The position numbers were made by a program, and so were the translations under genes. From an uncultured virus (IMG/VR IMGVR_UViG_3300043409_001074) (Duplodnaviria; Heunggongvirae; Uroviricota; Caudoviricetes), in the IMG/VR virus record IMGVR_UViG_3300043409_001074: a stretch of DNA of 64,000 bases, one strand, 5' to 3'. Under the pieces are notes generated by a model, which worked only from the letters and a program-made list of their open reading frames with translations, made no database searches and was not told the DNA's origin. Shown here one piece after another: positions 2,047-54,661 of this stretch. The stretch's first letter is position 1, and each line of letters begins with the position of its first letter.

Positions 2047-2274
2047 CTATTCATTAAATATATTAATATCTGAATAAAGAGGAAATATTTCAATATCTGT
2101 ATATTTCCTCTTATTTATTTCTAATTCTATAATTCTATTACCTACTTTCGTGCAATCATCTACCGTTTTCGCTGAATAATATTCATGCCGTTCATCAAAA
2201 TCCCAGCCATTGGGAGTCACTTCCCATTCCAAAAAAGTAATACGATATCCAGTAATCTCGCCAGTATTATTCAT
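2047..2274 (-). CDS. hypothetical protein (start revised to MNNTGEITG)
   Basis: Start overlaps the stop of the upstream ORF. Confidence 0.55.
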   Translation of the reverse strand: MNNTGEITGYRITFLEWEVTPNGWDFDERHEYYSAKTVDDCTKVGNRIIELEINKRKYTDIEIFPLYSDINIFNE

Positions 2275-2473
2275 AATAATTTGAATCCCAATCAATGGTC
2301 CAATGCTCATTCTTGGCTTGTGGCCATGCATCATGAAATTGTTCAAGAGCATGTTCGGTATTTTCAGCCTCACAAAACCACGTTTCGGCAGAATCGGTAT
2401 TTTCAATACTCAATTCAAACCGCCAGAAAATAAAATTAAAACGATACAGCCTTGGGGGATGAATGAGAGCCAT
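2267..2473 (-). CDS. hypothetical protein
   Basis: AGGA RBS; promoter TTGACA(2541)-N17-TAGTAT(2518). Confidence 0.6.
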   Translation of the reverse strand: MALIHPPRLYRFNFIFWRFELSIENTDSAETWFCEAENTEHALEQFHDAWPQAKNEHWTIDWDSNYYE

Positions 2474-20695: not shown

Positions 20696-20987
20696 GAAAC
20701 AATTTAAAGAAGTCTTAAATTTTTTGTGCCATATGAAATATGCAAATAAAAAATATATGATGTATTTGGAAGTAAGTGGTAAAGATCGGTATATTATGGG
20801 AATGAGGAATGATTTTTTTATTACTCATGGGGATACTTATACACCAATACAAAAATGGGATCATCGTAATTTTCGTAATCCCTATGATTTAATTTCATCT
20901 ATTAAATTTATCGCTTCTAGATATTATAATTTAGATGAAATGATTCACAATATGTCACCAAATTATATACCACATATTGTAGATTAA
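20685..20987 (+). CDS. hypothetical protein
   Basis: ORF overlapping the previous stop; start uncertain. Confidence 0.55.
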   Translation: MMTKKQFKEVLNFLCHMKYANKKYMMYLEVSGKDRYIMGMRNDFFITHGDTYTPIQKWDHRNFRNPYDLISSIKFIASRYYNLDEMIHNMSPNYIPHIVD

Positions 20988-21280
20988 TATATTAAATCTG
21001 ATTCTTCATAATGTATGAGAGTGAAATTGATTTGATCTATTGCTTCTTGAACTGATAGATCAAACCATTCTCCATGTGAGCGAATATAACTCATATCTTT
21101 ATGAAGTAATTTTTCATAAAGTCTGGCATTATCTAATTTCTTCATATATTTAATTTCTAGTTTTTCAGGATGTCCAGTTTGGAGTTGTTTAACTCGTTTT
21201 TCTGGATTATCACTAATACCTATTTTACAAGGTGGATTATTAGATTTAGCACTAGAAATAACATATATGAATTTAGTCAT
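20984..21280 (-). CDS. GIY-YIG nuclease-like protein (T5orf172/MUG113 type)
   Basis: IYVI...KIGIS...RVKQLQTG...GEWF. Confidence 0.85.
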   Translation of the reverse strand: MTKFIYVISSAKSNNPPCKIGISDNPEKRVKQLQTGHPEKLEIKYMKKLDNARLYEKLLHKDMSYIRSHGEWFDLSVQEAIDQINFTLIHYEESDLIY

Positions 21281-35274: not shown

Positions 35275-37221
35275 TTAAGTAGTAATCTTTTTATTCTTTT
35301 TTAACTGACTAACATCAGCCGTGGCGCTTGCCCCTAATTGTGCAAGGTCTGCAAGAGTTCCCCCAAATATGTATGATCCAACATGCTGTAATGCAATCCA
35401 GGGACATAACCATACCTTGCCACCCATCTTTCTCACATTCTGACAAAAGAAATAATCTTCTGATAAATATCTTTTTGTCTCTGGATCAATGATACAATCG
35501 AAATATGCCGTAATTTCTCTACTACCATCGAATGCATCCGTGCGAACATGATCCGGCTTATAACTATACTGTGGATATGCCTCTTTGTAAAGATCAAAAG
35601 TTTTACGACGAATCATCATAAAGCCAGTTCCAGTTTCCATAACTTCGGCAGGTTCATTAATTTGAATATGAGTAGTATTGCCAGCAGGATTAAATACATA
35701 ATCTCCAACATATTTATTTAAATTCTCTGGATCATCATCTGCAAATCCTTTATCGACCGCCATTTTAATTTTTTCCCAGCTAATACAATTGCGAATAAAA
35801 ACTGTATTATATAGGAAATTATGATTATTTTCAACTCCAATATCATATTGATCACTATCATAATCAATTTTTTCTACAGATTCAATTTTAGTGGCAGCGA
35901 ATTCTAATCTATCATTATTTAATGGAACGAATTCACTGTTTCTATATTTTTCTGGAAGTTTATATTGCATATGTTCTGGAATATGTTTTGATATAATTTG
36001 AAAAAATTTATCAGCATCGCCATTAACGAATCTTAATCTTTTATATGTTCTTTTAGTAACATCATTGGCTGTAGGTTGCATTTCATCAATACGAACATTA
36101 AATCCATATGTGTTCTTAAAATATTCTACAAGAAGTAATTGATCCTCATCAGAAAATCCCTGAGTATTCAATTCACAATAATGTGCAGTATCGCCAGACT
36201 TCTTTAGGCAACCATCATCCATATACCAAAATGCTAGTGCAATATCGTTAATATATGGAATTATATTTTTAACAGTTTTTTCATTATTTTCAAAAAATAA
36301 TTCTCTGGCATATTTTGTTTGTCCATTAACTATAGATGAAAGTTGAAAAATTTGTGAAGTGGAATATCCAACTGATTTATATTCTCTAATAGTTCCACCA
36401 AATAAATTTTGTTTATATTCTAAATATTCTTTTTGTTTTTCTCCATGACTACATGATAATCTATTATATCTACCAGATATATGACTATCTCCCATCAATG
36501 TCCCAATTAATGCAGAAACAACATCTGTATTATATAAAGCCTGTGATCTTACGTTTTCTGGGTTTAATGAAGTGTATTTTCCGACCATTTCATCAACTCT
36601 TTTAAATTGAATAGTTGGATTAAATAAATCTTCAACATAAGAAATTTCATGATCATATGTCATAATCAATTTTTTAGCTTTAGTTGGGTGTTTTGATAAT
36701 TTAACTTCTACCCATTTGTTATTATTAGGGTTTAAGTGATGTTCTAGAATATTATTCCATGATGTCTTACCAGTATCATCAATGGTTAATACCTTTCCAT
36801 TATATTTGTTATCAACAATCCATTTAATTTTCTTGTAACCATCCTCAGTTAAAATTTTGGCATTTTTATGAATTGATTTTTTTGGATACGGACCTGCAAG
36901 GACATCATATGGTGATTCATCTGATTGCATCGCTAACATAGCAATAACATCATTAGCATTGAAACCAATATCAGCGTCAACGAATAGAAAATGTGTTGAG
37001 TCACTACGTAGAAATTCATCTACACAATAATTTCTTGCCCGAGGGATTAGTGATTCGTTGAATAAAGAGTAGAATTTCATTTCTATTCCATATTTCATAC
37101 AAACTGCTGTCAGATCAGATATCGACCTATTATAGATGCCCGCGCACATGCCGCCGAACATTGGACTGGCCAAAAATAATTTCTTTTTTTGTAGCTCTTC
37201 GTGGGTAATTTTAATTTCCAT
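35275..37221 (-). CDS. glycosyltransferase-like protein interrupted by an intein
   Basis: ESLIPRARN, FVDADI, GTGFM and LSEDYFFC (GT-A-like). Confidence 0.75.
   Translation of the reverse strand: MEIKITHEELQKKKLFLASPMFGGMCAGIYNRSISDLTAVCMKYGIEMKFYSLFNESLIPRARNYCVDEFLRSDSTHFLFVDADIGFNANDVIAMLAMQSDESPYDVLAGPYPKKSIHKNAKILTEDGYKKIKWIVDNKYNGKVLTIDDTGKTSWNNILEHHLNPNNNKWVEVKLSKHPTKAKKLIMTYDHEISYVEDLFNPTIQFKRVDEMVGKYTSLNPENVRSQALYNTDVVSALIGTLMGDSHISGRYNRLSCSHGEKQKEYLEYKQNLFGGTIREYKSVGYSTSQIFQLSSIVNGQTKYARELFFENNEKTVKNIIPYINDIALAFWYMDDGCLKKSGDTAHYCELNTQGFSDEDQLLLVEYFKNTYGFNVRIDEMQPTANDVTKRTYKRLRFVNGDADKFFQIISKHIPEHMQYKLPEKYRNSEFVPLNNDRLEFAATKIESVEKIDYDSDQYDIGVENNHNFLYNTVFIRNCISWEKIKMAVDKGFADDDPENLNKYVGDYVFNPAGNTTHIQINEPAEVMETGTGFMMIRRKTFDLYKEAYPQYSYKPDHVRTDAFDGSREITAYFDCIIDPETKRYLSEDYFFCQNVRKMGGKVWLCPWIALQHVGSYIFGGTLADLAQLGASATADVSQLKKNKKITT
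35788..36876 (-). mobile_element. intein with LAGLIDADG homing endonuclease (363 aa)
   Basis: YPKK|SIHKNAKIL...TYDH...LIGTLMGDS...FWYMDDG...YDIGVENNHNF...FIRN|C. Confidence 0.9.
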
Positions 37222-38757: not shown

Positions 38758-38840
38758 CCAGACGTAACCGAGGTAGACTTCTAATCTATTAAACGTAAAT
38801 GGAGTTGAAAATGGGGGTTCGAGTCCCTCCGTCTGGACCA
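38758..38840 (+). tRNA. tRNA-Arg(TCT)-like RNA lacking a D arm
   Basis: CCAGACG/CGTCTGG acceptor, GTAGA-CTTCTAA-TCTAT anticodon arm, canonical T arm, ACCA. Confidence 0.65.
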
Positions 38841-38994: not shown

Positions 38995-39186
38995 ATGACA
39001 ATTTTTAGATTTCTTGTAGTGAATAGGAATAACAATTTATTAAAGAAATTTACGAATTCTGAAGCCGTAAGAATATTTCTTGGAAATAAGAATGTGGATG
39101 ACTATATCATCATTAAGAATAATTCAGATGGAGTAAGGGTTGTGAATTTTAATGAATTAGACAAACCACTAGTAACAGGGCAGTAG
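38995..39186 (+). CDS. hypothetical protein
   Basis: AGGA RBS, 63 aa. Confidence 0.55.
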   Translation: MTIFRFLVVNRNNNLLKKFTNSEAVRIFLGNKNVDDYIIIKNNSDGVRVVNFNELDKPLVTGQ

Positions 39187-39254
39187 TTTAAATGGTTAAA
39201 ACGTCGGACTGTGATTCCGAAGAGTGTCGGTTCGAGTCCGACCGCACCTGACCA
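39176..39254 (+). tRNA. tRNA-His(GTG), irregular acceptor stem
   Basis: TCGGA-CTGTGAT-TCCGA anticodon arm, canonical D and T arms, ACCA. Confidence 0.8.
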
Positions 39255-39265
39255 ATAAATATTAT

Positions 39266-39349
39266 GAAATAGGTAGTTTAACAAGAAAAATAGCTTCATG
39301 CCGGTTGTTCGTTGCAGATATTGGTTCAAGTCCAATCCTATTTCTAACA
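39266..39349 (+). pseudogene. tRNA-like element without a clear anticodon arm
   Basis: GAAATAGG/CCTATTTC acceptor; ATTGG-TTCAAGT-CCAAT T arm. Confidence 0.5.
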
Positions 39350-39432
39350 ATCAATAAAGGATTTACTATGATAGACCTTTCAGAAAAAATCTATGATAAA
39401 TTAAAAAATATATTGTATGATGAAAACTATAA

Positions 39433-39520
39433 GGGATGGTATACCACTAAAGACGTGGCCTGGACTGTAAATCCAGTGTTCGATTGAACTGATAAGGAGC
39501 GTTACCTTGACATCCCACCA
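39433..39520 (+). tRNA. tRNA-Tyr(GTA) with non-canonical T loop
   Basis: CTGGA-CTGTAAA-TCCAG anticodon arm, variable stem GTTC/GAAC, T loop AGCGTTA, ACCA. Confidence 0.75.
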
Positions 39521-39563
39521 AATTTTTCATTATTGGTTACTATATAAAATACAATAATATTAA

Positions 39564-39709
39564 TCCCAGCTGGCTCAATGGTAGAGCACTTGACTGTAGG
39601 ACCAAGCGCAGAATGCAGTTGGGTAGAATATACCCGACATTGCCGTGCAATACGGATAGGTCCGAGATTAATCAGGTGGTTGCAGGTTCGAGTCCTGCGC
39701 TGGGAGCCA
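39564..39709 (+). tRNA. tRNA-Asn(GTT) interrupted by a 71-nt insert in the anticodon
   Basis: Joining 39564-39596 and 39668-39709 gives a canonical 75-nt tRNA-Asn (U1-A72, G73, CCA). Confidence 0.85.
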
Positions 39710-39766
39710 TTTTTTCCTCTTGACTTCGATAATCAGATAGAGTAGTATCCACAAACAATAGAATAT

Positions 39767-39843
39767 GGGTCTGTAGCTTAATTAGTTAAAGCCGTCACCT
39801 CATAAGTGATTTTATGTCAGTGCAAATCCGACCGGACCTACCA
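39767..39843 (+). tRNA. tRNA-Met/Ile2(CAT)
   Basis: GTCAC-CTCATAA-GTGAT anticodon arm, ACCA; promoter TTGACT-N17-TAGTAT at 39720-39748. Confidence 0.85.
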
Positions 39844-39870
39844 AAATTTATCACATAAAGGAATTACATC

Positions 39871-40479
39871 ATGGCAGTAGTAAATCTTCGCAAGGCTTCC
39901 GTTATTCAACGCAACATTCAGGCGCGTATTAAGGAATTACAATCTTCCTTAGAAATCACTACACGCACTATGCAAATTTGGAATACATATCCAAATTCAT
40001 TCGTGGTAGATAGTCGCACGGCTGCACAAAATAATATTACACAAGTTGTTAAGCTGCGCCGAATTCTGGGTGATATTCGTCATAGTGTTGGTGCCGCAAA
40101 TCATAATTGTGGTATTAATGCCTACCTAACTTCCAGGGAACTAATTAAGCATAACGTTAGCATGTTTAATTCTCTGCGGAAAGCTGATATACAACTATCT
40201 CCCGAGGAATTGGAAAGTAAAATTCAGTATATCAAGAATTCTGATACTGCTGATACTTCCTCATATGGTCGAGGTGCCTATGGGCGAAATTCCTCTGCTT
40301 CTTCCGTGGAATTAAATATTTTCACTAAGGAAGATATCGAAAACATGGAAGATATGTATAATAGTTATAAAGCCGATCTTGTCGTAATTGAGGATGAACT
40401 ACTTCGCATTAATATGAATAGTAATATTACTATTTCCGAAGTAGATTATTCCTTTCTAAAAGAATTACATCTGGTATGA
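39871..40479 (+). CDS. coiled-coil hypothetical protein
   Basis: AAGGA RBS; helical heptad pattern. Confidence 0.8.
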   Translation: MAVVNLRKASVIQRNIQARIKELQSSLEITTRTMQIWNTYPNSFVVDSRTAAQNNITQVVKLRRILGDIRHSVGAANHNCGINAYLTSRELIKHNVSMFNSLRKADIQLSPEELESKIQYIKNSDTADTSSYGRGAYGRNSSASSVELNIFTKEDIENMEDMYNSYKADLVVIEDELLRINMNSNITISEVDYSFLKELHLV

Positions 40480-40744: not shown

Positions 40745-41704
40745 ATGAAAATTTGGGATAATATCAAGCGTATTGATGATGAAGCCGAACGTGTTGCTAA
40801 GTTTATTTTTACCCGTGATAACGCGGTCGCAGAGGCGGTTTTATACCGTTACCCTACCTACCTAGAGCGAACGGTTATCTGCTGCTCTACGCAGTCTGGA
40901 TGCCCCGTAGGATGCCGGTTTTGTGGCGCCGGGGATTACTTCGTTCGCTCACTGACTACTGAGGAAATCGTTAGTCAGGTAGAGCATCTATTAGAGGAAA
41001 CTAACTGCAACCCGGCATCCATGAAGCGGCTGCAAATTATGTTCATGTCCATGGGTGAACCATTATTGAATTTGAAGAATTTAGTTCCAGCATTACGTAT
41101 TCTGTATAACATGTATCCTAATGCTACATTGTTAATCTCTACATCTGCACCTAGAATTAATGATGAAAACCGTAAACTGCTGATGGATATTTCTGTTGAA
41201 ATTCCTACTATTGGTCTACAATTCTCGGTTCATGAGTCAACAGATGAAGAACGAAATCTATTAATTCCATTTAAAAAGAAATTGACATTGGACGAAATTG
41301 TAGATTTTGGAACGGAATGGTTTACAACTACGTCTCGCAAGCCATTTTTTAACTATTGCGCTCACGATAATAATTCATCCGAGGTTAATGCAGATGAAAT
41401 TTATTTAAAGTTTAACCCATTTGTATTCAATGCAACGGTATCTGTTGTATGCGAACGAAATGATGGTATGGCCGCAAGCAATCAGCATCAACGAGATTTA
41501 GCAGTTGACTTTGCCGCTAAATTGGTAGAACGTGGCTATGACGTTCGGGTATTTGATCCTGCTGGCCAGGATACTATTGGTGGTGGATGTGGGCAGTTAC
41601 ACTATGTTCAACAATGGTTTAAGGATAACCCTAACAATACCCGACCATCTATTGGATATGGAAAAGACGTTGTTCATGCACCGAGGGAAGTAGAATTAAC
41701 TTAA
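40745..41704 (+). CDS. RlmN/Cfr-like radical SAM RNA methyltransferase
   Basis: STQSGCPVGCRFC, MSMGEPLLN, GCGQL. Confidence 0.85.
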   Translation: MKIWDNIKRIDDEAERVAKFIFTRDNAVAEAVLYRYPTYLERTVICCSTQSGCPVGCRFCGAGDYFVRSLTTEEIVSQVEHLLEETNCNPASMKRLQIMFMSMGEPLLNLKNLVPALRILYNMYPNATLLISTSAPRINDENRKLLMDISVEIPTIGLQFSVHESTDEERNLLIPFKKKLTLDEIVDFGTEWFTTTSRKPFFNYCAHDNNSSEVNADEIYLKFNPFVFNATVSVVCERNDGMAASNQHQRDLAVDFAAKLVERGYDVRVFDPAGQDTIGGGCGQLHYVQQWFKDNPNNTRPSIGYGKDVVHAPREVELT

Positions 41705-41727: not shown

Positions 41728-41808
41728 GCGGATATTTTGGCCGAAGGGTGGTCACTAGGCTTCCAACCTAGCCTTTAATTAGACGGAGTTCGATTCTCCA
41801 TATCCGCT
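41728..41808 (+). tRNA. tRNA-Gly(TCC), atypical (long variable loop, no encoded CCA)
   Basis: GCGGATA/TATCCGC acceptor, CTAGG-CTTCCAA-CCTAG anticodon arm, TTCGATT T loop. Confidence 0.75.
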
Positions 41809-43922: not shown

Positions 43923-44537
43923 ATGAGTGAAGTTTATACAAATGGGTTTAATGTCCATGATCATCTAAAAAATAATACATTAGAAGAATTGCAGGAAATT
44001 TCTATGAAAGACAGATTGAATTTTTCTGTATGTCTATTCAATCTGGACTATGATAATAATATCGGTAACTGCATTCGCACCGCTCATATTATGGGAGCGA
44101 AGAATGTTTATATTTTTGGTAAGCATCGGTTTGATTCTAGGTCTACTGTTGGCTGTAAGAATTACACGAACATTATTCGTCATACGATTCCAATTGATTT
44201 ATCTGAAAATGATTTACGAAAAGAATTTAACCGAATGATGGTTACTAATAATATGGTCCCATTATTCATTGAGAAGAACCAGAATTCTATTTCTATTGAT
44301 GAATTGCCAAACTGGATGGATAATGATAATTTTGACTATTGGTATCATTATTGGGATAGATCACCAAATTTTACTCTAGTATTTGGGAATGAGAATAAAG
44401 GTATCCCTGATAGTATCGGTAATAATTGCAATAGATTTCATATTCCACAATTAGGTGTAATTCGATCATTAAATGTTGCATCTGCTGCGGCTATTGCAAT
44501 GTATGAAATGAATAAATACTGTAGTCAACATCAATAA
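43923..44537 (+). CDS. SpoU/TrmH RNA 2'-O-methyltransferase
   Basis: NIGNCIRTA, VFGNENKG, SLNVASA. Confidence 0.9.
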   Translation: MSEVYTNGFNVHDHLKNNTLEELQEISMKDRLNFSVCLFNLDYDNNIGNCIRTAHIMGAKNVYIFGKHRFDSRSTVGCKNYTNIIRHTIPIDLSENDLRKEFNRMMVTNNMVPLFIEKNQNSISIDELPNWMDNDNFDYWYHYWDRSPNFTLVFGNENKGIPDSIGNNCNRFHIPQLGVIRSLNVASAAAIAMYEMNKYCSQHQ

Positions 44538-45032: not shown

Positions 45033-45278
45033 TTACACTTTCTCAAAATGATATCCCCAGAATATTTTCATTAATATTCTTTTCCATCTAGCTATATCAT
45101 ATCTCACAGTATAGAAAAATGTCTCATATTCACCCAAGGGATAAATTTTCCATTTAATGGATTCCTGATCGCGTGTAGTGTATAGTAATATATTTTTTGG
45201 TAAATCTAATTCATAAATATCTTCCATACTCATATCCGTGATTTCATTATTTGCACTATTTTTATTATTACTACTCAT
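45033..45278 (-). CDS. hypothetical protein
   Basis: ORF coupled to the upstream gene; start uncertain. Confidence 0.55.
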   Translation of the reverse strand: MSSNNKNSANNEITDMSMEDIYELDLPKNILLYTTRDQESIKWKIYPLGEYETFFYTVRYDIARWKRILMKIFWGYHFEKV

Positions 45279-45711
45279 TATCATTAACCTTTTTCTTTTC
45301 AATTATATTAGATTTTACTATTCTACAAAAAATCCATTCATTATAATAATCATCTTTTTCTAGGACTTTTCTAGAAAACTGTTCCCTGGCTTCATGATAA
45401 GTGGCCAGGGATTTTTTATGACATAAATGTAGAATTTGTCTACTAAAATTTTCCTTACCATATTCCTTAACGTCTAATAATAAAGATTTGGATGATCCAT
45501 AATATTTCTTCCAATCACTTTCTTTTTTCACCGTCTTCTTTAATTTTCTCGTTCCCTGCTTAACCCGAAGAATATTAACAAAAGTTTTCTTACCAATATA
45601 TTTTTTATTATTAATAGTATTAGTGATGATATAAACAAAACATAGACTATTCTTTATATCATCACTCGTAAAATTTTTATTTTTATACGTCCAGGGATTG
45701 TCATAGTCCAT
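45271..45711 (-). CDS. GIY-YIG endonuclease
   Basis: FVYIITN...YIGKK...ESDWKKYYGSS. Confidence 0.85.
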   Translation of the reverse strand: MDYDNPWTYKNKNFTSDDIKNSLCFVYIITNTINNKKYIGKKTFVNILRVKQGTRKLKKTVKKESDWKKYYGSSKSLLLDVKEYGKENFSRQILHLCHKKSLATYHEAREQFSRKVLEKDDYYNEWIFCRIVKSNIIEKKKVNDNE

Positions 45712-49198: not shown

Positions 49199-49810
49199 TT
49201 ATTTCCATACGTCTCCCCATGATCCTTCCAGGGCGCCTTTAGAATAATCTGTGTTGTTGCTTTCAAAAAAGTTACCGTGGGTTTTAACGTTAATCATATA
49301 CTCTACCCAGGGTAGTGGATTTTTCTTAATTTTGAATATTCCTTTTAGTCCTAGTGAGATTAATCGTCTATCACAGATATAACGAATATATTGTTTAACT
49401 TCATCTGCGGTTAAATTTTTCATTGGTCCCATTTTGAATGCAAGATCAATGAAGTTATCTTCTAATTCAACAATTTTAGTTGCCATACTATAAATTTCAG
49501 ATTTCAGTTTATCTTTCCAAATATGTCTATTTTCCTCAATGTATGCACGAAACAATTTAATCATATTATCACAATGCATCGTATTACCAGTTACACTTAT
49601 TTTTCCATTTTTTCTAATAAAAAAGGCTTTTCCTGGCACCCCAACACAAAATAAATCAACTAATTCACCATACTCATGTTTCAATTTTTTAATATTTTCA
49701 AAACGTATTCTATTGCAATCTATAATTTCAATTTTATCGTTCTTAAATTCTATTTGCTTATCGCAAAACGTAGCAATAACTTGTAAAATTTCTTTATCTT
49801 TAACTAACAT
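49199..49810 (-). CDS. nrdB: RNR beta subunit C-part with split intein C-half (49583-49810)
   Basis: LFCVGVPGKAFFIRKNGKISVTGN|TMH...YICDRRL...NFFE. Confidence 0.9.
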   Translation of the reverse strand: MLVKDKEILQVIATFCDKQIEFKNDKIEIIDCNRIRFENIKKLKHEYGELVDLFCVGVPGKAFFIRKNGKISVTGNTMHCDNMIKLFRAYIEENRHIWKDKLKSEIYSMATKIVELEDNFIDLAFKMGPMKNLTADEVKQYIRYICDRRLISLGLKGIFKIKKNPLPWVEYMINVKTHGNFFESNNTDYSKGALEGSWGDVWK

Positions 49811-49811
49811 T

Positions 49812-50573
49812 TTATTTTTTCCTTCGTGTCATTCCTGGTCTAAAACCTTCAGGTGGGTCTATACCAAATTGTAATTTGATATTATTAATACCATCAGTAT
49901 AACATTTAATACCTTTAATATTTGGATGATTAGCTATTTTACTTTTAGATATTTCACTATGTTTTTTGTCTAAAAAATAAGATAAATTTCCTTTAGTGAA
50001 TCCTTCTGGTATTTGGCCATTCTGTTTGATTAATTTTGTTGATATCCCATTATTGATCCAATAATACTCCCCAAGTTTATTTTTGGCAGCTTTTCTCATA
50101 TTTTCTAATGCTTTACCTTCATGTTTTCTATTTTTATTATGTGGAAGGGTATGTGGAAATAATTTAATTCTATTTTTTGCTGCCAATTTTTTCTTTTCTC
50201 GAACTTCTAAAGAATCTTTTTTATTATTCCTCAATTTTGTAATTAAATATTTCTTTTTAATTAATTCTAACTCTTCCTTGGTTTTCCCAATGCGGGTATT
50301 TCCACCATCGCCACCAATTCTGATATTATAACAATTTTCATCTAAGACTAATTCTAAAGTTACTAATTCTTTTTCTTTTAAAGTTGCAGCTTCTTTATTA
50401 TGAAAAGAAAATAATATTTCTCTAATAAAATTTTCTTTTCCATGTTTCTTAATAGCTCGTTTTAATAAATTACCAGACCCATAATAGTGATCAAAATCTT
50501 CACTTTTTTGTTTATGATAACCAATATAATACCTTCCATTAATTTTATTAATAGTTTTATAAACGATATACAT
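49812..50573 (-). CDS. free-standing GIY-YIG homing endonuclease
   Basis: VYKTINKINGRYYIGYH...YYGSG...YNIRIGG. Confidence 0.9.
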   Translation of the reverse strand: MYIVYKTINKINGRYYIGYHKQKSEDFDHYYGSGNLLKRAIKKHGKENFIREILFSFHNKEAATLKEKELVTLELVLDENCYNIRIGGDGGNTRIGKTKEELELIKKKYLITKLRNNKKDSLEVREKKKLAAKNRIKLFPHTLPHNKNRKHEGKALENMRKAAKNKLGEYYWINNGISTKLIKQNGQIPEGFTKGNLSYFLDKKHSEISKSKIANHPNIKGIKCYTDGINNIKLQFGIDPPEGFRPGMTRRKK

Positions 50574-50620
50574 AAATTCCTCCTATATAGAATATTATAT
50601 ATTCGTCTATAATAAACCAA

Positions 50621-51670
50621 TTATTCTTGATGTAATTTATAGAGTATTAAAAATTCTTCGCTCCATTCTGAAGATATAATATCATATAATTCTTTTACCC
50701 ATTCTAATGATATTTCATTTTTTGCCGACATAATGCATAATTCTTTTTGGGTTTCGGTCATTTTTAAAAGTTTCCCGATTTTCCTGCCCGAAGATATAAA
50801 ATTTGCATTATTTTCAGTTAATTCTAAATCTTTTCCTTTGCTTTCTTTTATAATTGAATTTTGTTCATAAATCATTCTATGATTTGGTGACACATGTTGC
50901 TCAAAATTATCACCAATATACTCATATGTGGTATTTCTTTGAACTTTTTGAATTTTATTTGGAAATACGAATGAACATTCTTGGGTATTCGTATTATATT
51001 CTAATATACGACATTCTTTAGTTAATTTATCAATAGCAATCCAATCGCCATTTGATAGTAATACCTCTGTATCTGGGGTAACTGCCTCGTCAACAATGCT
51101 CCATACGATAATTTGTCCCATTCCCTTCATCATACCATTACGTTGAAAATTAAGCAACATAACAAAGCTACTGAATAACTGAACACCTTCGGTAAATGCT
51201 GAAAATGCTGCAATTTGTTGTGCCAATGAATTTTCATCAGATGATGCAATATTTTCAAAGAAATCATGTTTATCGGCCATTTCTTTATATTGACTAAATT
51301 CCTGATATGTCACTTCTGGCATACCAAGACTTTCAATCAAATGTGAGTATCCTGCAATATGAATTGACTCTCTATTGGCAAAGGATAATAACATCATTCT
51401 AACTTCTGGTTGGGGAAAATACGGAAGATATTTTGTTACATATCCCTCGGATACATCTATATCCCCTTGCGTAAAGAAACGAAAGATTTGTGTTAGAAAA
51501 TATCTTTCATTATCATTTAATTTATTATTCCAATCTTTAACATCGTCAATCATAGAAACTTCCGTGTGAAGCCAATGTGATTGTTCTGATTCTAGAAACG
51601 CATCATACGCCCATGGGTATGAAAATGGTTTAAAATAATTTCTTTTATCTGTTAGTTTAATTTTACTCAT
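50621..51670 (-). CDS. nrdB: RNR beta subunit N-part with split intein N-half (50624-51085)
   Basis: FFTQGD, ESIH, EGVQLFSSF, IVDE|AVTPDTEVLLSNGDW...VSPNHRM. Confidence 0.9.
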   Translation of the reverse strand: MSKIKLTDKRNYFKPFSYPWAYDAFLESEQSHWLHTEVSMIDDVKDWNNKLNDNERYFLTQIFRFFTQGDIDVSEGYVTKYLPYFPQPEVRMMLLSFANRESIHIAGYSHLIESLGMPEVTYQEFSQYKEMADKHDFFENIASSDENSLAQQIAAFSAFTEGVQLFSSFVMLLNFQRNGMMKGMGQIIVWSIVDEAVTPDTEVLLSNGDWIAIDKLTKECRILEYNTNTQECSFVFPNKIQKVQRNTTYEYIGDNFEQHVSPNHRMIYEQNSIIKESKGKDLELTENNANFISSGRKIGKLLKMTETQKELCIMSAKNEISLEWVKELYDIISSEWSEEFLILYKLHQE

Positions 51671-51675
51671 ATCAA

Positions 51676-52743
51676 TTAGCCCTCACATGCCAAACATTCA
51701 TTATCATCATTATTCATTTGTAATTCTGGAATTTCTTCAATTACATTTCTCTCGATTTGTTCAGATAGATTATCTGCTCTTTTTAATTTTTCACTTCTAC
51801 AATAATACAATGATTTAATACCAAATTTCCAGGCCAGAAAATGTGTATTATGTAATTTTGGTATCTTCACATTTGGTGGTAGAAATATATTAATAGATTG
51901 TCCCTGATCAATATATTTTTGTCTCATTGCTGCTAATAGAATAATCCAATTCTGATCAAGTTCCATGGCAGTTTTAAATACATTTTTCTGATGTTTAGTC
52001 AGAAAACTTAGATGTTGAACTGATCCATTATTTGATGCGATATTTCTCCACATATCCTCAATATCTAAATTCAATTCGGCACATTTTTTCACTAGAATTT
52101 TATTTAGAAATTTATTCTTATTCAATCCCGCACCAGATAATGTATCTTGTCTATATGCATTAGCTGAGAATGGTTCAATGGATGGTGAGGTATTTCCCAT
52201 AATAATAGATGTAGATGCATTAGGAGCAACACTCATTACATGTGATAATCTATTACCTGTTCCCTCTGCATCTGGGGCTTCTCCACGTTCCTTACCTAAT
52301 CTTTTATTAGCAATATCACATTGTTCCCTAATATGTTTAAACATTACATTATTAATATTAATTGCTGCTAGACTTTCAAATACAATGTTATTTTTCTGAA
52401 GATATGCATGAAAACCTAATGCACCTAAACCAACTGATCTTTCTCTAGTAGCAGAATAAATTGCTCTAGAAATTGCCTGTGGGGCATCATCAATAAATGT
52501 CTGTAATACATTATCTAACATTTCCATAATATCAGAAATGAATAATTCATTATTTTTCCATTCATCAAAATATTCTAATCCTACTGATGATAGGCAACAT
52601 ACTGCTGTTCTATCTTTATTAGTGGGTAATTCTATTTCGCTACAATTATGTAATAATATCCCATTACCAAAGAAATTATGATTTCCTTCAACTGTAATAT
52701 CATATACTGAAATTTCCTCGTCAAGATATTCTATTTTTAACAT
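51676..52743 (-). CDS. nrdA: RNR alpha subunit C-part with split intein C-half (52645-52743)
   Basis: VYDITVEGNHNFFGNGILLHN|CSEI; APNASTS; KSLYY; CLACEG. Confidence 0.93.
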   Translation of the reverse strand: MLKIEYLDEEISVYDITVEGNHNFFGNGILLHNCSEIELPTNKDRTAVCCLSSVGLEYFDEWKNNELFISDIMEMLDNVLQTFIDDAPQAISRAIYSATRERSVGLGALGFHAYLQKNNIVFESLAAININNVMFKHIREQCDIANKRLGKERGEAPDAEGTGNRLSHVMSVAPNASTSIIMGNTSPSIEPFSANAYRQDTLSGAGLNKNKFLNKILVKKCAELNLDIEDMWRNIASNNGSVQHLSFLTKHQKNVFKTAMELDQNWIILLAAMRQKYIDQGQSINIFLPPNVKIPKLHNTHFLAWKFGIKSLYYCRSEKLKRADNLSEQIERNVIEEIPELQMNNDDNECLACEG

Positions 52744-53479
52744 TTATTCTTCCTTTTATGTAACCTTTATTTAAATATTCATTTAATTGTGATTTATTTA
52801 CTGCAATATTTTTGATACCATTATTTATAAATATTTTCCCCATTATAGACAGAGATAGTTTTTTAATATGATCTTCAGTTTTCTTATTTTTTTCAATTTT
52901 TAATCCTGTCATATCTACTAACTTTGAATATATGTAATCTTTATTTCCTCTATATTTAGAAAGAGATTTAGGAAAATTTACTATTCCATCATCAATTATT
53001 AGTTGGGATAATTTTCCGAAACTTAATATTTTACCTAATTCAATACATTTGCTGTAAAGTAAATTAATAAAATTTTCATTATCTATTCCAGAATAACGCG
53101 GATTATTTTCCCCAGTTGAAGTTTCAATTATTTTTTGTCTCCATAATTCTTGTCTCTCTAATGTCATTCTAGGTATCATCCAACCGCCTGTTCCCCCGGA
53201 AGTAGCATTGTATCCTAATTTCGGATTATCAGATTTATACATTTTTATCCAATATATTTCTTTTTCTTTGGCTAAACTTTCATTTTCAATATTATCTTCT
53301 AATTTTTCAATAAAGAAATTTTCCGGTTTATGAAAATTTATGGCGAAATGAAATCTAAATTTAGGAATATTTCTAGCAACAGTTAAATGGGATTTAAATC
53401 TTGCTTCTAATTTTCTTCCAGTATATCCAATATAATTTTTATTATTAATAGTATTCCGTATTATATAAACAGTAAACAT
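52721..53479 (-). CDS. free-standing GIY-YIG homing endonuclease
   Basis: VYIIRNTINNKNYIGYT...R...GYNATSGG. Confidence 0.9.
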   Translation of the reverse strand: MFTVYIIRNTINNKNYIGYTGRKLEARFKSHLTVARNIPKFRFHFAINFHKPENFFIEKLEDNIENESLAKEKEIYWIKMYKSDNPKLGYNATSGGTGGWMIPRMTLERQELWRQKIIETSTGENNPRYSGIDNENFINLLYSKCIELGKILSFGKLSQLIIDDGIVNFPKSLSKYRGNKDYIYSKLVDMTGLKIEKNKKTEDHIKKLSLSIMGKIFINNGIKNIAVNKSQLNEYLNKGYIKGRINVKNRIS

Positions 53480-53536
53480 AAATTCTCCTTGGTAAAATTA
53501 TTTCTAGAAGTATTTATACCAAGGAGAATAGTTTAA

Positions 53537-54661
53537 TTAAGAATCACAAAATAATTTATCAGTTTCCAATAATTCTTTAGCCATAACATATCCTCTATTA
53601 GTTGTATAAATTTTATGTTCTGGCGTGCAAATTATATAATTCCCATTTTCCATAGTTATTTTCATAACTTTAGCTTTTGGATTAGTTAATGAAAAATGAG
53701 TTACAGGTTTAAATTCAAATTTATTTGTATTAATGTCATATGAATAAACTTTTATCAGCGATTTATTCATATAATTTCCTAGTTCACTCATTTTTACATC
53801 TATAATATTTTCATTTTCATCCAATATGGTAATTATTGTATCACCAGATACACAGAGATTCGACTGTTGAATTTTCAATCCTCTATCTTTTAACCAATAT
53901 GGTAAACCTTTATTAGCAGTATCAATAAAATGAAGATACGGTTCGCCAGTTTCAATTCTAGTAGTCATAATTTTCTGCCATAATTGTTTAGCAGAAATAG
54001 TATTTTTTACTTTCCCATTGGGGTCCTTCAATTGCCAGGAATCATCATAATTTTCATATTTCATGCAATTTTCAATAATTTTCATGAAATCATCAGTAAT
54101 ATTAATGCCATGATGAATATTAGGTGCCCGCATTCGGGGATCGCCTGTTGCTTTACGCATATCAATAAACATTTCAATATCAGGATGATCAATATTTAAA
54201 TATGTTGCAAATGATCCACGTCTGCTAGTGCCTTGTTTATATGCTAATGTTGCAGCATCATAAATTTTAAGATGTGGCATAATACCAACAGACAATTCAT
54301 CTGCTGATCTAATATCAAAACCAATTCCAACACCACCACCAAGCATTGATAACCAATTAGTTTCTGATAATGTATCTACTAACCCTTCCTTACTGTCGTG
54401 CAAATAGGGCAGATAGCAGGAAATAGGAAGTCCATTTTTAGTTCTTCCATATGATAACACTGGTGTTGCGTATGATAACCAATGTTTAGAACTATAATCA
54501 TATAATCTTTGTGCGTGTTCTGGATTTGAACTGAATTTCTGTGAAACGTATGCAAATCGTTCCTGGGGTGAGGTTTCCTCTGGTCGCATATATGATTCTT
54601 TAAGTCTAGTAATTCCCAATTCATCAAATAAATTATCACGAGTTGTATCAATTTTAATCAT
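53537..54661 (-). CDS. nrdA: RNR alpha subunit N-part with split intein N-half (53540-53854)
   Basis: PISCY, GGGVG, RRGSFA, GEPY, QSNL|CVSGDT...CTPEHKI. Confidence 0.93.
   Translation of the reverse strand: MIKIDTTRDNLFDELGITRLKESYMRPEETSPQERFAYVSQKFSSNPEHAQRLYDYSSKHWLSYATPVLSYGRTKNGLPISCYLPYLHDSKEGLVDTLSETNWLSMLGGGVGIGFDIRSADELSVGIMPHLKIYDAATLAYKQGTSRRGSFATYLNIDHPDIEMFIDMRKATGDPRMRAPNIHHGINITDDFMKIIENCMKYENYDDSWQLKDPNGKVKNTISAKQLWQKIMTTRIETGEPYLHFIDTANKGLPYWLKDRGLKIQQSNLCVSGDTIITILDENENIIDVKMSELGNYMNKSLIKVYSYDINTNKFEFKPVTHFSLTNPKAKVMKITMENGNYIICTPEHKIYTTNRGYVMAKELLETDKLFCDS

What the first reader, a model, noticed from the sequence alone, without database searches (positions are those of the whole stretch)
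39564..39709. tRNA-Asn split in its anticodon by a 71-nt structured mini-intron
Seen: both exons are canonical. The insert (39597-39667, or shifted by 1) falls inside the GTT anticodon, is closed by GGACC/GGTCC, and holds hairpins GTTGGGTA/TACCCGAC and CCGT/ACGG. Established: bacterial tRNA introns are group I or II ribozymes of about 200 nt or more, and archaeal introns need a bulge-helix-bulge, which I cannot see here. Inference: an undescribed small intron class (self-cleaving, or nuclease plus RNA ligase dependent), or a tRNA-scaffolded RNA that hides its anticodon from host anticodon nucleases.
Basis: partly seen in the sequence, partly recalled or inferred. Interest (0 to 1): 0.82.

Follow-up and report, generated by a model that had tools for sequence, protein, structure and literature searches.

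The report
Mobile mini-intron in phage tRNA-Asn
A freshwater T4-like phage carries an asparagine tRNA gene split inside its anticodon by a 71-base folded insert, far too small to be a known bacterial self-splicing intron; the same kind of insert sits at the same spot in other phages, including lab-grown ones, so how it is removed can now be tested.

Summary
Window 39564-39709 is a canonical tRNA-Asn(GUU) gene (Rfam tRNA 52.3 bits) split at 35/36 (or one base earlier) by a 71-nt insert that folds into a four-way junction.

It matches no group I intron, archaeal bulge-helix-bulge intron or Rfam ribozyme. It is kept in every related phage contig I saw. All 8 helix substitutions preserve pairing.

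It belongs to a family of 43-71-nt inserts at this site in five phage lineages, including cultured Sinorhizobium phages phiM12, phiM7 and phiM19. Members share the junction CUGU|R-GGA...UCC-RARAK|UAA and a covarying closing helix. Their interiors differ.

A homologous HNH homing-endonuclease gene abuts the split gene in three lineages. Sister phage phiN3 has the unsplit gene and no HNH.

Best reading (about 0.5): an endonuclease-linked mobile mini-intron, cut out by a protein nuclease at the conserved junction and resealed by an RNA ligase. No RNA data were available, so splicing is unproven. A dead, selfishly interrupted gene is the main rival.

This scan noted the same cassette type earlier on other DNA (e1-5839573). 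Lak-phage "enigmatic" tRNA introns (Devoto 2019) are the closest published relatives.

The parts
39564..39597 (+). 5' exon of tRNA-Asn(GUU): acceptor 5' strand, D arm, anticodon stem 5' strand, loop C32 U33 G34 U35
   Evidence: Rfam tRNA alignment; ARAGORN -i cloverleaf
39598..39668 (+). 71-nt insert (mini-intron); equally well 39597-39667
   Evidence: kept in all related contigs
39669..39709 (+). 3' exon: U36 A37 A38, anticodon stem 3' strand, variable loop, T arm, acceptor 3' strand, G73, encoded CCA (39707-39709)
39599..39603 (+). closing helix 5' strand GGACC; pairs with 39659-39663
   Evidence: folds; C39602U keeps a G.U pair; covaries across lineages
39659..39663 (+). closing helix 3' strand GGUCC
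39608..39616 (+). weak hairpin GCA-GAA-UGC
   Evidence: C39609U gives U.G
39618..39638 (+). 8-bp hairpin GUUGGGUA-GAAUA-UACCCGAC
   Evidence: four one-sided changes (39625, 39634, 39636, 39637) all keep pairing
39643..39655 (+). hairpin CCGUG-CAA-UACGG
   Evidence: loop base 39649 varies
39664..39668 (+). purine-rich 3' tail GAGAU (family consensus R-A-R-A-K) just before the 3' junction; 39664 changes together with 39598 (A/G versus G/A)

Best explanation
What it is. The stretch is a phage tRNA-Asn(GUU) gene carrying a mobile mini-intron between U35 and U36. The insert belongs to a family of 43-71-nt structured inserts that occupy exactly this site in tRNA-Asn genes of several phage lineages. 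The family travels with a free-standing HNH homing-endonuclease gene.

DNA level (inferred). The HNH enzyme cuts uninterrupted tRNA-Asn genes of competing phages. Repair copies in the nuclease gene together with the neighbouring part of the tRNA gene. The insert breaks the target in the carrier's own gene. This would be collaborative homing with a mini-intron in the place of a group I intron. The window's phage has kept the insert but lost the HNH gene, which its close relative L130/L132 still has.

RNA level (inferred, not shown). The pre-tRNA is transcribed and folds as predicted. A protein endonuclease, host or phage and not identified, recognises the conserved junction. That junction is the anticodon stem, then CUGU|R-GGA on the 5' side and UCC-R-A-R-A-K|UAA on the 3' side, with a purine-purine pair under a 5-bp helix. 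The nuclease cuts on both sides. The two tRNA halves stay held together by the tRNA body and are sealed in the anticodon loop by an RNA ligase of the T4 Rnl1/Rnl2 kind.

Shown here: the gene, the fold, structure-preserving evolution, the family, the shared junction, the HNH linkage, an empty-site allele in a sister phage, and RNA ligase genes in the two complete carrier genomes.

Not shown here: transcription, cleavage, ligation, and the HNH target.
For: (1) Real gene. Rfam tRNA scores 52.3 bits. The spliced form is a perfect cloverleaf with G73 and CCA.

(2) Kept, never lost. The insert is present in 4 of 4 sequences that reach this region among the 6 scanned with ARAGORN -i (window, L127, L128, L130), and in metagenome contig L132. 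In all 4 DNA runs laid, every phage-like contig over the site keeps it: X2 record 15, X11 record 1, X15 record 10, and X3 records 20 and 22, which each cover part. There are no indels inside 39564-39709, whereas the flanking spacers carry five (table 4).

(3) RNA-level constraint. All 8 substitutions at paired positions in this clade keep the pair. In the intron these are C39602U, C39609U, A39625G, C39634U, G39636A and A39637G; in the exons, A39568G and C39683U. Seven of the eight are at Watson-Crick pairs and are all of the wobble-making kind. My rough estimate of the chance of that is (1/2)^7, about 0.008. Positions 39598 and 39664 change together (A/G to G/A) and never alone.

(4) Family. 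The cultured phages phiM12, phiM7 and phiM19 were found by exon similarity only. They have a tRNA-Asn (58.7 bits) with a 46-nt insert at the same site. L200 was found with an exon-only pattern. G004/L142 and G005 were found with a junction pattern. All five lineages share the junction. Pair 4 of the closing helix reads C-G, G-C, U.G, A-U, U-A.

(5) Function sits at the junction. The interiors differ between lineages: three hairpins in the window clade, one hairpin with a 7-nt loop in the others.

(6) Mobility. Homologous HNH genes lie directly beside the split gene in L130/L132, phiM12 and L200. They are 42% identical by BLASTP (E 2e-44) and 41-47% by tblastn. phiN3, of the same genus as phiM12, has an uninterrupted tRNA-Asn 12 nt from the same tRNA-Met (98% identical) and no HNH. 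Its acceptor and T stems match phiM12's, while its D and anticodon arms differ.

(7) The same 35/36 site holds bona fide group I introns (189-262 nt) in bacterial tRNA-Asn genes (L204, L206, L208, L221).

(8) Ligases. Rnl1 (PF09511) is in 2 of 5 records searched and Rnl2 (PF09414) in 3 of 5. Both are present in the two complete genomes, phiM12 and G004.
Against: No enzyme is known in bacteria or phages that would make the two cuts. EndA was found in 0 of 5 records, RNase III in 0 of 5 and RtcB in 0 of 5.

The 64-kb window encodes no RNA ligase, polynucleotide kinase, RtcB or RNase III that Pfam or PHROGs can see, across the 88 ORFs scanned with Pfam and the 62 with PHROGs. The rest of the genome, roughly 110 kb by the CheckV-based figure, was not available.

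RNA ligases are common in T4-like phages that have no tRNA introns, T4 itself included, so point 8 discriminates little.

In three lineages an intact tRNA-Asn lies nearby. G005 has one directly beside the split copy, whose T loop is degenerate. L200 has two. G004 has one 5 kb away. There the split copy could be dispensable.

The intron's substitution density (11 variable sites in 71 nt) is about that of the spacers, so only its structure looks constrained, not its sequence.

There are no double compensatory changes inside the window clade.

The junction motif in lineages C and D was enforced by my search pattern.

GenBank marks the phiM12 gene as a pseudo 'tRNA-OTHER'.
Confidence: 0.5

Rival explanations
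1. The insert is never removed. An HNH-linked selfish DNA insertion has broken a dispensable phage tRNA-Asn gene. The exons look intact because the cassette spread recently by gene conversion into resident genes. The conserved helices serve the DNA element or are inherited.
For: HNH linkage, and an empty site in phiN3. Intact spare tRNA-Asn genes lie beside the split copy in G005 and L200 and 5 kb away in G004, and G005's split copy has a degenerate T loop. No splicing enzyme was identified. Earlier notes of this scan describe the same HNH family killing phage tRNA-Asn genes (e1-5674392, e1-5770060; not checked here). phiM12's central exon sequence differs from phiN3's while the acceptor and T stems agree, as a recent conversion tract would leave.
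Against: In the window clade all 8 helix substitutions, exon and intron, preserve RNA pairing, as G.U on the sense strand. The exons (3 changes in 75 nt) are roughly as conserved as the neighbouring tRNA-Met and tRNA-His (one change each seen in the laid runs). There are no indels. phiM12 (whole genome scanned) has no other tRNA-Asn, and none was seen in the parts of the window clade that are held (window, G001, G002). Precise excision always restores CU-GUU-AA. The junction is conserved while the interiors diverge.
Confidence: 0.27
2. The mechanism is excision by the cell's own tRNA end-processing enzymes. The insert mimics a tRNA or an acceptor/T-arm minihelix. RNase P would cut at U35|R1 and an RNase Z-like or RNase E-like activity at the 3' side. 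Both leave 3'-OH and 5'-phosphate ends, which Rnl1/Rnl2 can seal without end healing. This is a sub-case of the best explanation.
For: In lineages B-E the interior is one hairpin with a 7-nt T-loop-like loop (UUCAAUU, UGCAACU, UUCGAUU twice). From that hairpin to the purine under the closing helix the 3' strand is 12 nt, as in tRNA positions 61-72. An A and exactly 3 nt follow (my count). Rfam's tRNA model aligns the 3' half of the phiM12 insert to T arm + acceptor strand + discriminator (9.9 bits, E 7.6). U at -1 and a purine at +1 suit RNase P (recalled). The window's insert has cloverleaf topology and is 71 nt long. The Lak phage insert at this site holds a clear T-arm-like hairpin.
Against: The tRNA-model match is not significant, and L200 gave none. 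The window's own insert has no T-loop, and its 3' strand is 14 nt rather than 12; Rfam sees no tRNA likeness in it. RNase Z normally cuts after the discriminator, which would leave 3 extra bases on the 3' exon (recalled).
Confidence: 0.15
3. The RNA works unspliced: a stable tRNA-scaffolded RNA (decoy, sponge or regulator) whose anticodon is deliberately masked.
For: The body and insert structure are conserved. T4's tRNA cluster also encodes stable RNAs of unknown role, one with a tRNA-like T arm. Earlier notes of the scan describe anticodon-less phage tRNA mimics (e1-5890208; not checked).
Against: The part that would carry such a function, the interior, is unrelated between lineages, while the junction and the exact restorable anticodon loop are what is shared. 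HNH linkage and the empty-site allele point to an intron-like mobile insert rather than a dedicated RNA gene.
Confidence: 0.1
4. The insert is a new small self-cleaving or self-splicing ribozyme, or a group I remnant spliced with help in trans.
For: A U precedes the 5' junction. GCAG, which could pair with exon CUGU as in a group I P1, occurs twice in the window's insert and once in lineages D and E. Inserts of lineages B, D and E end in G. The fold is compact.
Against: No Rfam ribozyme or group I match even at E up to 10 on the insert alone. At 43-71 nt it is far below the 189-262 nt of real group I introns at this site. The window's insert ends in U or A, not G. The interior is not conserved between lineages, and 5 of 29 unpaired bases vary within the clade. 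GCAG is a 4-mer that is easily there by chance.
Confidence: 0.07

Closest known systems
'Enigmatic' introns in tRNA genes of Lak megaphages (Devoto et al. 2019, PMC6784885; passages read, Table S6 seen)
   Same: These are small, non-group-I, conserved inserts in the anticodon loop of phage tRNA genes, with no known splicing route. One of them (filed there as Tyr GTA) reads GACTGT|...|TAATC, which I read as tRNA-Asn interrupted at 35/36. In Lak-B6 it lies about 100 nt upstream of a homolog of the same HNH family.
   Different: The Lak insert is 93-142 nt. It has a different junction (CUGU|AUACAGG...GUAGC|UAA) and holds a tRNA-like element. The paper describes no junction motif and no link to a homing endonuclease in the passages I read. 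Lak-A1 has that HNH next to an uninterrupted tRNA-Asn.
Group I introns at 35/36 of bacterial tRNA-Asn(GUU). The label 'Asn.4Ug' of Williams 2020 (bioRxiv 10.1101/2020.01.27.920355) comes from earlier notes of this scan; I read the abstract and Results, and the table with the classes is an image I could not see.
   Same: Same gene, same insertion point and U at -1. According to earlier notes an HNH of this family rides in or beside these introns. I saw four such introns here (L204, L206, L208, L221).
   Different: Those are 189-262 nt, end in G, and have a ribozyme core. The window's insert is 71 nt, ends in U or A, and matches no group I model.
Collaborative or trans homing: a free-standing homing endonuclease paired with an ORF-less intron; also T4 SegB in the tRNA cluster (review PMC2988022, passages read)
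   Same: A free-standing endonuclease gene next to an interrupted conserved gene, presence/absence between sister phages, and a conversion-like exon mosaic.
   Different: The known partners are self-splicing group I introns. Here the partner is a mini-insert with no ribozyme. The cleavage specificity of this HNH is untested.
Archaeal/eukaryal tRNA introns (bulge-helix-bulge, EndA, then RtcB or Trl1 ligase)
   Same: A small protein-dependent intron in the anticodon region. The two junctions sit symmetrically, each directly 3' of one strand of a short (imperfect) 4-position helix, in the phiM12 fold.
   Different: There are no two 3-nt bulges and the register is off by two. EndA was found in 0 of 5 records and RtcB in 0 of 5. 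The host is bacterial.
T4 anticodon-loop repair (PrrC cut healed by Pnk and sealed by Rnl1; recalled, not read here)
   Same: It provides a known phage enzyme that seals a break inside a tRNA anticodon loop. Rnl1 homologs are in phiM12 and G004.
   Different: That pathway repairs one host-inflicted cut. Here two programmed cuts that remove 71 nt would be needed, and no nuclease is identified.

Membership tests
tRNA-Asn(GUU) | Canonical cloverleaf, anticodon GUU, discriminator G73 once the insert is removed | tested here: met
   Rfam tRNA 52.3 bits over the full model. ARAGORN -i gives a 75-nt cloverleaf with GUU, G73 and CCA. The exons match other phage tRNA-Asn genes.
Group I intron | Conserved catalytic core (P3-P9) detectable by covariance model | tested here: not met
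   No Intron_gpI or other Rfam match at gathering score, at E<=1 on 3.5 kb, or at E<=10 on the insert alone.
Group I intron | Size sufficient for the ribozyme (real ones at this very site are 189-262 nt) | tested here: not met
   71 nt, against 189-262 nt in L204, L206, L208 and L221.
Group I intron | U at -1 and G as the last intron base | tested here: not met
   U35 can be -1, but the last base is U (39668) or A (39667). G ends the insert only in lineages B, D and E.
Archaeal-type BHB intron | Two 3-nt bulges separated by a 4-bp helix, with cuts inside the bulges | tested here: not met
   The folds show a 2 x 5-nt internal loop, or a single 3-nt bulge. The required pairing of positions 30-33 with the intron bases is absent (hand check).
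Archaeal-type BHB intron | Splicing endonuclease EndA available | tested here: not met
   PF01974 in 0 of 5 carrier records. None in the window's ORFs. The host genome is unknown.
Known self-cleaving ribozymes (hammerhead, twister, twister-sister, pistol, hatchet, HDV-like, hairpin) | Match to the family's covariance model | tested here: not met
   No Rfam match at E<=10 on 39585-39680.
Phage tRNA mini-introns of unknown mechanism (Lak type) | Short non-ribozyme insert in the anticodon loop of an otherwise intact phage tRNA gene, conserved among relatives | tested here: met
   compare.
Homing-endonuclease-associated intron (collaborative homing) | Endonuclease gene in or beside the interrupted gene | tested here: inconclusive
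   No HNH in the window, G001 or G003. It is present beside the same split gene in L130/L132 of the same clade, and in phiM12 and L200.
Homing-endonuclease-associated intron (collaborative homing) | Closely related genomes with the uninterrupted gene and no endonuclease | tested here: met
   phiN3 versus phiM12. No empty-site allele was found for the window's own clade.
Homing-endonuclease-associated intron (collaborative homing) | The endonuclease cuts the intron-less allele at or near the insertion site | not testable with these tools
   Needs a cleavage assay.
Any intron | Spliced product exists | not testable with these tools
   Needs RNA from infected cells.

The most novel reading that the evidence does not exclude
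Bacteriophages have a protein-dependent tRNA splicing pathway of their own. It is neither ribozyme-based nor of the archaeal BHB type. A mobile mini-intron is recognised through a short conserved junction (CUGU|R-GGA...UCC-RARAK|UAA), cut out by a tRNA-processing or still unknown nuclease, and the anticodon loop is resealed by T4-type RNA ligase. That would give those ligases a routine splicing job. It would also explain the 'enigmatic' tRNA introns of megaphages.
Probability: 0.35. Interest if true: 0.9.

Novelty: new variant of a known kind. Interest (0 to 1): 0.72.

Why it matters
By textbook account (recalled), bacterial and phage tRNA introns are self-splicing group I ribozymes, and protein-made tRNA splicing belongs to archaea and eukaryotes. 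Short non-ribozyme inserts in phage tRNA genes were reported once, in Lak megaphages in 2019, and left unexplained.

This case adds four things. There is a recognisable family with a conserved junction. There is evidence that the RNA fold is under selection. There is a tie to a homing endonuclease that also lives at the same tRNA-Asn site in other phages.

Most usefully, members exist in cultured phages (phiM12, phiM7, phiM19) of a tractable, harmless host. The question 'is it spliced, and by what?' becomes a week of bench work.

If the insert is spliced, that would be a new RNA processing route in bacteria and a physiological role for phage RNA ligases. If it is not, it shows how selfish nucleases wreck and replace phage tRNA genes, and that such genes should be annotated as broken.

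Gene finders either miss these genes or mislabel them (tRNA-Thr, tRNA-OTHER, Tyr).

Tried and rejected
RNA evidence. The one run search listed 22 runs and no RNA holder, so expression and splicing could not be looked at.

Intron-less allele. In the DNA runs one 451-nt contig (X3 record 21) joins 39596 to 39668. Its flanks are unlike the phage, so I take it for another organism's ordinary tRNA-Asn, not an intron-less allele.

Exact-pattern scans.
- The scan with GCAATACGGATAGG gave 112 stretches, of which only the 2 already known contigs were real.
- GGTCCGAGATTAATC gave 11 stretches, 2 of them real.
- The 3' exon 25-mer found only those 2 contigs.
- The single metagenome scan found one contig, the same variant as L130.

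Miscounted pattern. Two scans used a pattern with one N too many and found nothing. The corrected pattern was run. Of its 22 genome-contig hits, 15 are ordinary uninterrupted tRNA-Asn genes with a chance TAATC downstream, 4 are group I introns (L204, L206, L208, L221), 2 are other tRNAs (L203 His, L209 Tyr), and L207 was left unresolved. Of its 10 viral hits, 5 are known contigs, 4 are uninterrupted genes, and 1 (L200) is new.

Dropped rows. L144 and L145 lie inside a 609-aa capsid-type ORF and were dropped as chance.

Other negatives.
- blastn of 1.4 kb around the gene against cultured phages found nothing.
- Covariance model R1 of the insert found one copy per record and no second copy in 129,785 bases, so the insert is not a repeat element.
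- T4's stable RNAs rnaC and rnaD were checked as possible analogues. rnaC has a tRNA-like T arm but is not a split tRNA.
- The GU...AG reading of the ends (giving anticodons AUU or AGU, as ARAGORN and GenBank suggest for some members) was rejected, because the bodies and G73 are those of tRNA-Asn.

Literature. Searches for a described bacterial or phage protein-dependent tRNA intron found none. The phiM9 paper's passages say nothing on the phiM12 split tRNA. I could not find the original phiM12 genome paper in the library, and it may mention the gene.

Full report
**The observation**

The window is part of a T4-like phage. It encodes a gp44/gp62 clamp loader, a gp45 clamp, a family-B DNA polymerase, a gp41-type helicase, UvsX, RegA and ribonucleotide reductase. 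Its polymerase is 47% identical to those of Synechococcus myophages. Holders of the DNA are freshwater, river and drinking-water metagenomes. No whole genome is held.

Rfam's tRNA model matches 39564-39706 over its full length at 52.3 bits, with 74 unaligned bases in the anticodon loop. ARAGORN finds the gene only when introns are allowed. It then reports tRNA-Asn(gtt) with a 71-nt intron and a perfect 75-nt cloverleaf with G73 and an encoded CCA.

The insert is 39598-39668, or 39597-39667. A 5-bp helix closes it, and inside are one strong, one medium and one weak hairpin, which together make a four-way junction. The arm folds 3.2 standard deviations better than shuffles.

**What it is not**

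No Rfam family other than tRNA matches the region at E<=1, and nothing matches the insert alone at E<=10. That excludes a recognisable group I intron and the catalogued small ribozymes.

Real group I introns do occupy exactly this site in bacterial tRNA-Asn genes. Four turned up in my own exon-pattern scan. They are 189-262 nt long and end in G.

No bulge-helix-bulge can be drawn (hand check). No EndA, RNase III or RtcB gene is present in any of the five related or carrier records searched.

**Conservation in the window's own clade**

Close relatives with the same split gene are three IMG/VR contigs (L127, L128, L130) and one metagenome contig (L132).

I laid contigs of four DNA runs from four studies on 39150-39900. 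Every phage-like contig over the site keeps the 71 bases, and X11 and X15 add a further sequence variant. I found no allele of this gene without the insert. The one contig that skips the 71 bases has unrelated flanks.

Eleven positions of the insert vary. All six that lie in helices keep the pair (C39602U, C39609U, A39625G, C39634U, G39636A, A39637G), as do both stem changes in the exons (A39568G, C39683U). One search counts 84 of 84 cells paired on the four full sequences, with no double compensatory change.

Seven of these eight changes hit Watson-Crick pairs and are all of the kind that leaves a G.U pair on the sense strand. By my rough reckoning that has a chance of about 0.008. Positions 39598 and 39664, which face each other under the closing helix, switch together from A/G to G/A and never singly.

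There are no indels in the gene, whereas the spacers beside it have five. The transcript's fold, insert included, therefore appears to be under selection. The insert's sequence as such is not more conserved than the spacers.

**A wider family**

A blastn of the whole pre-tRNA against cultured phages hit Sinorhizobium phages phiM12, phiM7 and phiM19 in two pieces. Their gene is a tRNA-Asn (58.7 bits) with a 46-nt insert at the same place. GenBank files it as pseudo 'tRNA-OTHER' or as 'tRNA-Thr'.

Its ends resemble those of the window's family. A pattern built on that junction found two more lineages: a 452-kb phage contig (G004, and L142 on a second contig) and G005. A pattern built on exons alone found a fifth, L200.

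tabulates them. All read CUGU|R-GGANN...NNUCC-R-A-R-A-K|UAA, with inserts of 71, 46, 43, 48 and 50 nt. The fourth pair of the closing helix is C-G, G-C, U.G, A-U and U-A in the five lineages. Lineages A, B and E were found without the junction being imposed, so the motif is not an artefact of my pattern. For C and D it was imposed.

The interiors are not alike. The window has three hairpins. The others have a single hairpin with a 7-nt loop of T-loop type. Whatever is selected therefore sits at the junction. This argues for processing and against both a ribozyme core and a function of the interior.

**Mobility**

In L130/L132 a 198-aa HNH endonuclease gene lies on the opposite strand between the split tRNA-Asn and tRNA-Met. 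phiM12 has a homolog in the same place and orientation (42% identity, E 2e-44). L200 has one directly upstream on the same strand (47%). The window, G001, G003, the complete G004 and the G005 fragment have none.

phiM12, phiM7 and phiM19 are identical over the 781-nt module. phiN3, of the same genus, has the same tRNA-Met (98%), an uninterrupted tRNA-Asn 12 nt upstream of it, and no HNH. The acceptor and T stems of the phiN3 and phiM12 genes agree, while the D and anticodon arms differ. A gene-conversion tract that brought in insert and nuclease together would look like this.

This is the pattern described for free-standing homing endonucleases and for collaborative homing (PMC2988022, passages).

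The HNH nuclease domain has 153 matching records among cultured or assembled phages. In Lak megaphages a homolog lies just downstream of tRNA-Asn. That gene is uninterrupted in Lak-A1. In Lak-B6 it is interrupted at 35/36 by about 141 nt holding a tRNA-like T arm.

Table S6 of Devoto et al. lists a near-identical arrangement in Lak-A1 as 'Tyr GTA' with a possible intron. Reading it as tRNA-Asn 35/36 is my inference. The published 'enigmatic' introns are thus neighbours of this family at the same site, with a different junction.

**How it may work**

Precise removal restores CU-GUU-AA in every member. phiM12, whose whole genome I scanned, has no other tRNA-Asn, and none was seen in the held parts of the window clade.

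Both complete carrier genomes encode Rnl1-type and Rnl2-type RNA ligases. G004 also has a PNK-like kinase 3 kb from its Rnl1. From recall, T4 Rnl1 seals breaks in tRNA anticodon loops.

I therefore favour the following route: a protein nuclease cuts at the conserved junction, the halves stay together through the tRNA body, and a ligase reseals the loop. The nuclease is unknown.

One attractive sub-model is that the insert mimics a tRNA minihelix and is released by RNase P and a 3' processing nuclease, leaving ends a ligase can join directly. The 12-nt spacing and the T-like loops of lineages B-E fit this, and Rfam's tRNA model aligns the phiM12 insert that way. But that score (9.9 bits, E 7.6) is not significant, L200 gives nothing, and the window's own insert does not fit.

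**What speaks against splicing**

- No enzyme is known for the two cuts.
- RNA ligases are common in T4-like phages anyway.
- The 64 kb I hold of this phage encode none.
- In G005, L200 and G004 intact tRNA-Asn genes lie near the split one, and G005's split copy has a damaged T loop.
- Earlier notes of this scan describe the same nuclease family simply destroying phage tRNA-Asn genes.

A broken, selfishly maintained gene is thus a serious rival (0.27). Against it stand the structure-preserving substitutions and the intact, slowly evolving exons in the window's clade.

**Verdict**

The self-cleaving and anticodon-hiding variants have no support.

What is new relative to print, as far as my four literature searches reach, is the family with its junction motif, its HNH partner, and its presence in cultured phages.

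The same cassette type was already noted by this scan on other DNA (e1-5839573, seen after I had reached the same reading). Its recurrence is not independent proof.

Noticed in passing
window 39434-39523 (+): A tRNA-Tyr(GUA)-like element with an acceptor stem, CCA end, CUGUAAA anticodon loop and long variable region. Its T arm is odd (AAGG-AGCGUUA-CCUU). Neither ARAGORN nor Rfam calls it. It is identical in L127, L128, L130 and L132. In runs X2, X3 and X11, G39496A and C39506U change together and keep the T-like stem paired.
   Followed up: partly
window 38758-38837 (+): A tRNA-like gene (Rfam tRNA 36.9 bits) with anticodon loop CUUCUAA (Arg UCU), a D arm cut down to 5 nt and a 20-nt variable region. 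Default ARAGORN skips it. Relatives have a normal tRNA-Arg(tct) in this neighbourhood.
   Followed up: no
window 41728-41808 (+): tRNA-Gly(UCC) of 81 nt with a hairpin in the variable region, unusual for a glycine tRNA. Rfam did not report it even at E<=1.
   Followed up: no
window 49199-54661 (-): Both ribonucleotide reductase genes are in pieces around GIY-YIG endonuclease genes. The small subunit is split as 50621-51670 and 49199-49810, with an endonuclease at 49812-50573. The large subunit is split as 53537-54661 and 51676-52743, with an endonuclease at 52721-53479 and intein-splicing-domain matches on both flanking pieces. This suggests a split or endonuclease-invaded intein. Rfam reported no group I intron here.
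   Followed up: no
window 35275-37221 (-): A 648-aa ORF next to gp45 holds a LAGLIDADG intein inside a PHROG of unknown function. The phage is unusually rich in selfish elements; there is also a SegE-like GIY-YIG gene at 45271-45711 and a T5orf172 gene at 20984-21280.
   Followed up: no
window 39420-39845 versus L001/L127: The ~420-nt block from the Tyr-like element through tRNA-Asn to tRNA-Met is about 99% identical between the window and contig L127, while the sequence on both sides is unalignable. The tRNA block looks like a cassette in a variable setting.
   Followed up: partly
G004 contig, 400744-400913 (-) (locus series L162-L184): The 452-kb phage that carries a 43-nt tRNA-Asn insert also has a tRNA-Tyr(GUA) split at 35/36 by a 93-nt structured insert ending ...GUCCAAG, like the Asn inserts. 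A tRNA-Lys-like gene at 44228-44357 has extra sequence between the D and anticodon arms.
   Followed up: partly
G005 contig, 2142-2343 (-): ARAGORN calls a tRNA-Ser(tga) with a 109-nt insert at 37/38. I did not examine it further.
   Followed up: no
L137 2828-2918 (phiM12): A second 'tRNA-OTHER' pseudo-tRNA in phiM12: Rfam tRNA 33.7 bits, with the anticodon arm replaced by a 22-nt block.
   Followed up: no
L136 1909-2047 (T4 rnaC): T4's stable 'species 1' RNA folds strongly (z = -4.6) and ends in a tRNA-like acceptor/T-arm module (CCGGGUUCGAAUCCCGG). It matches no Rfam family above threshold.
   Followed up: partly
window 43923-44537 (+) and 40745-41704 (+): A SpoU-type RNA 2'-O-methyltransferase gene and a radical-SAM gene lie within 5 kb of the tRNA cluster. 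They are possible tRNA-modifying enzymes of the phage.
   Followed up: no
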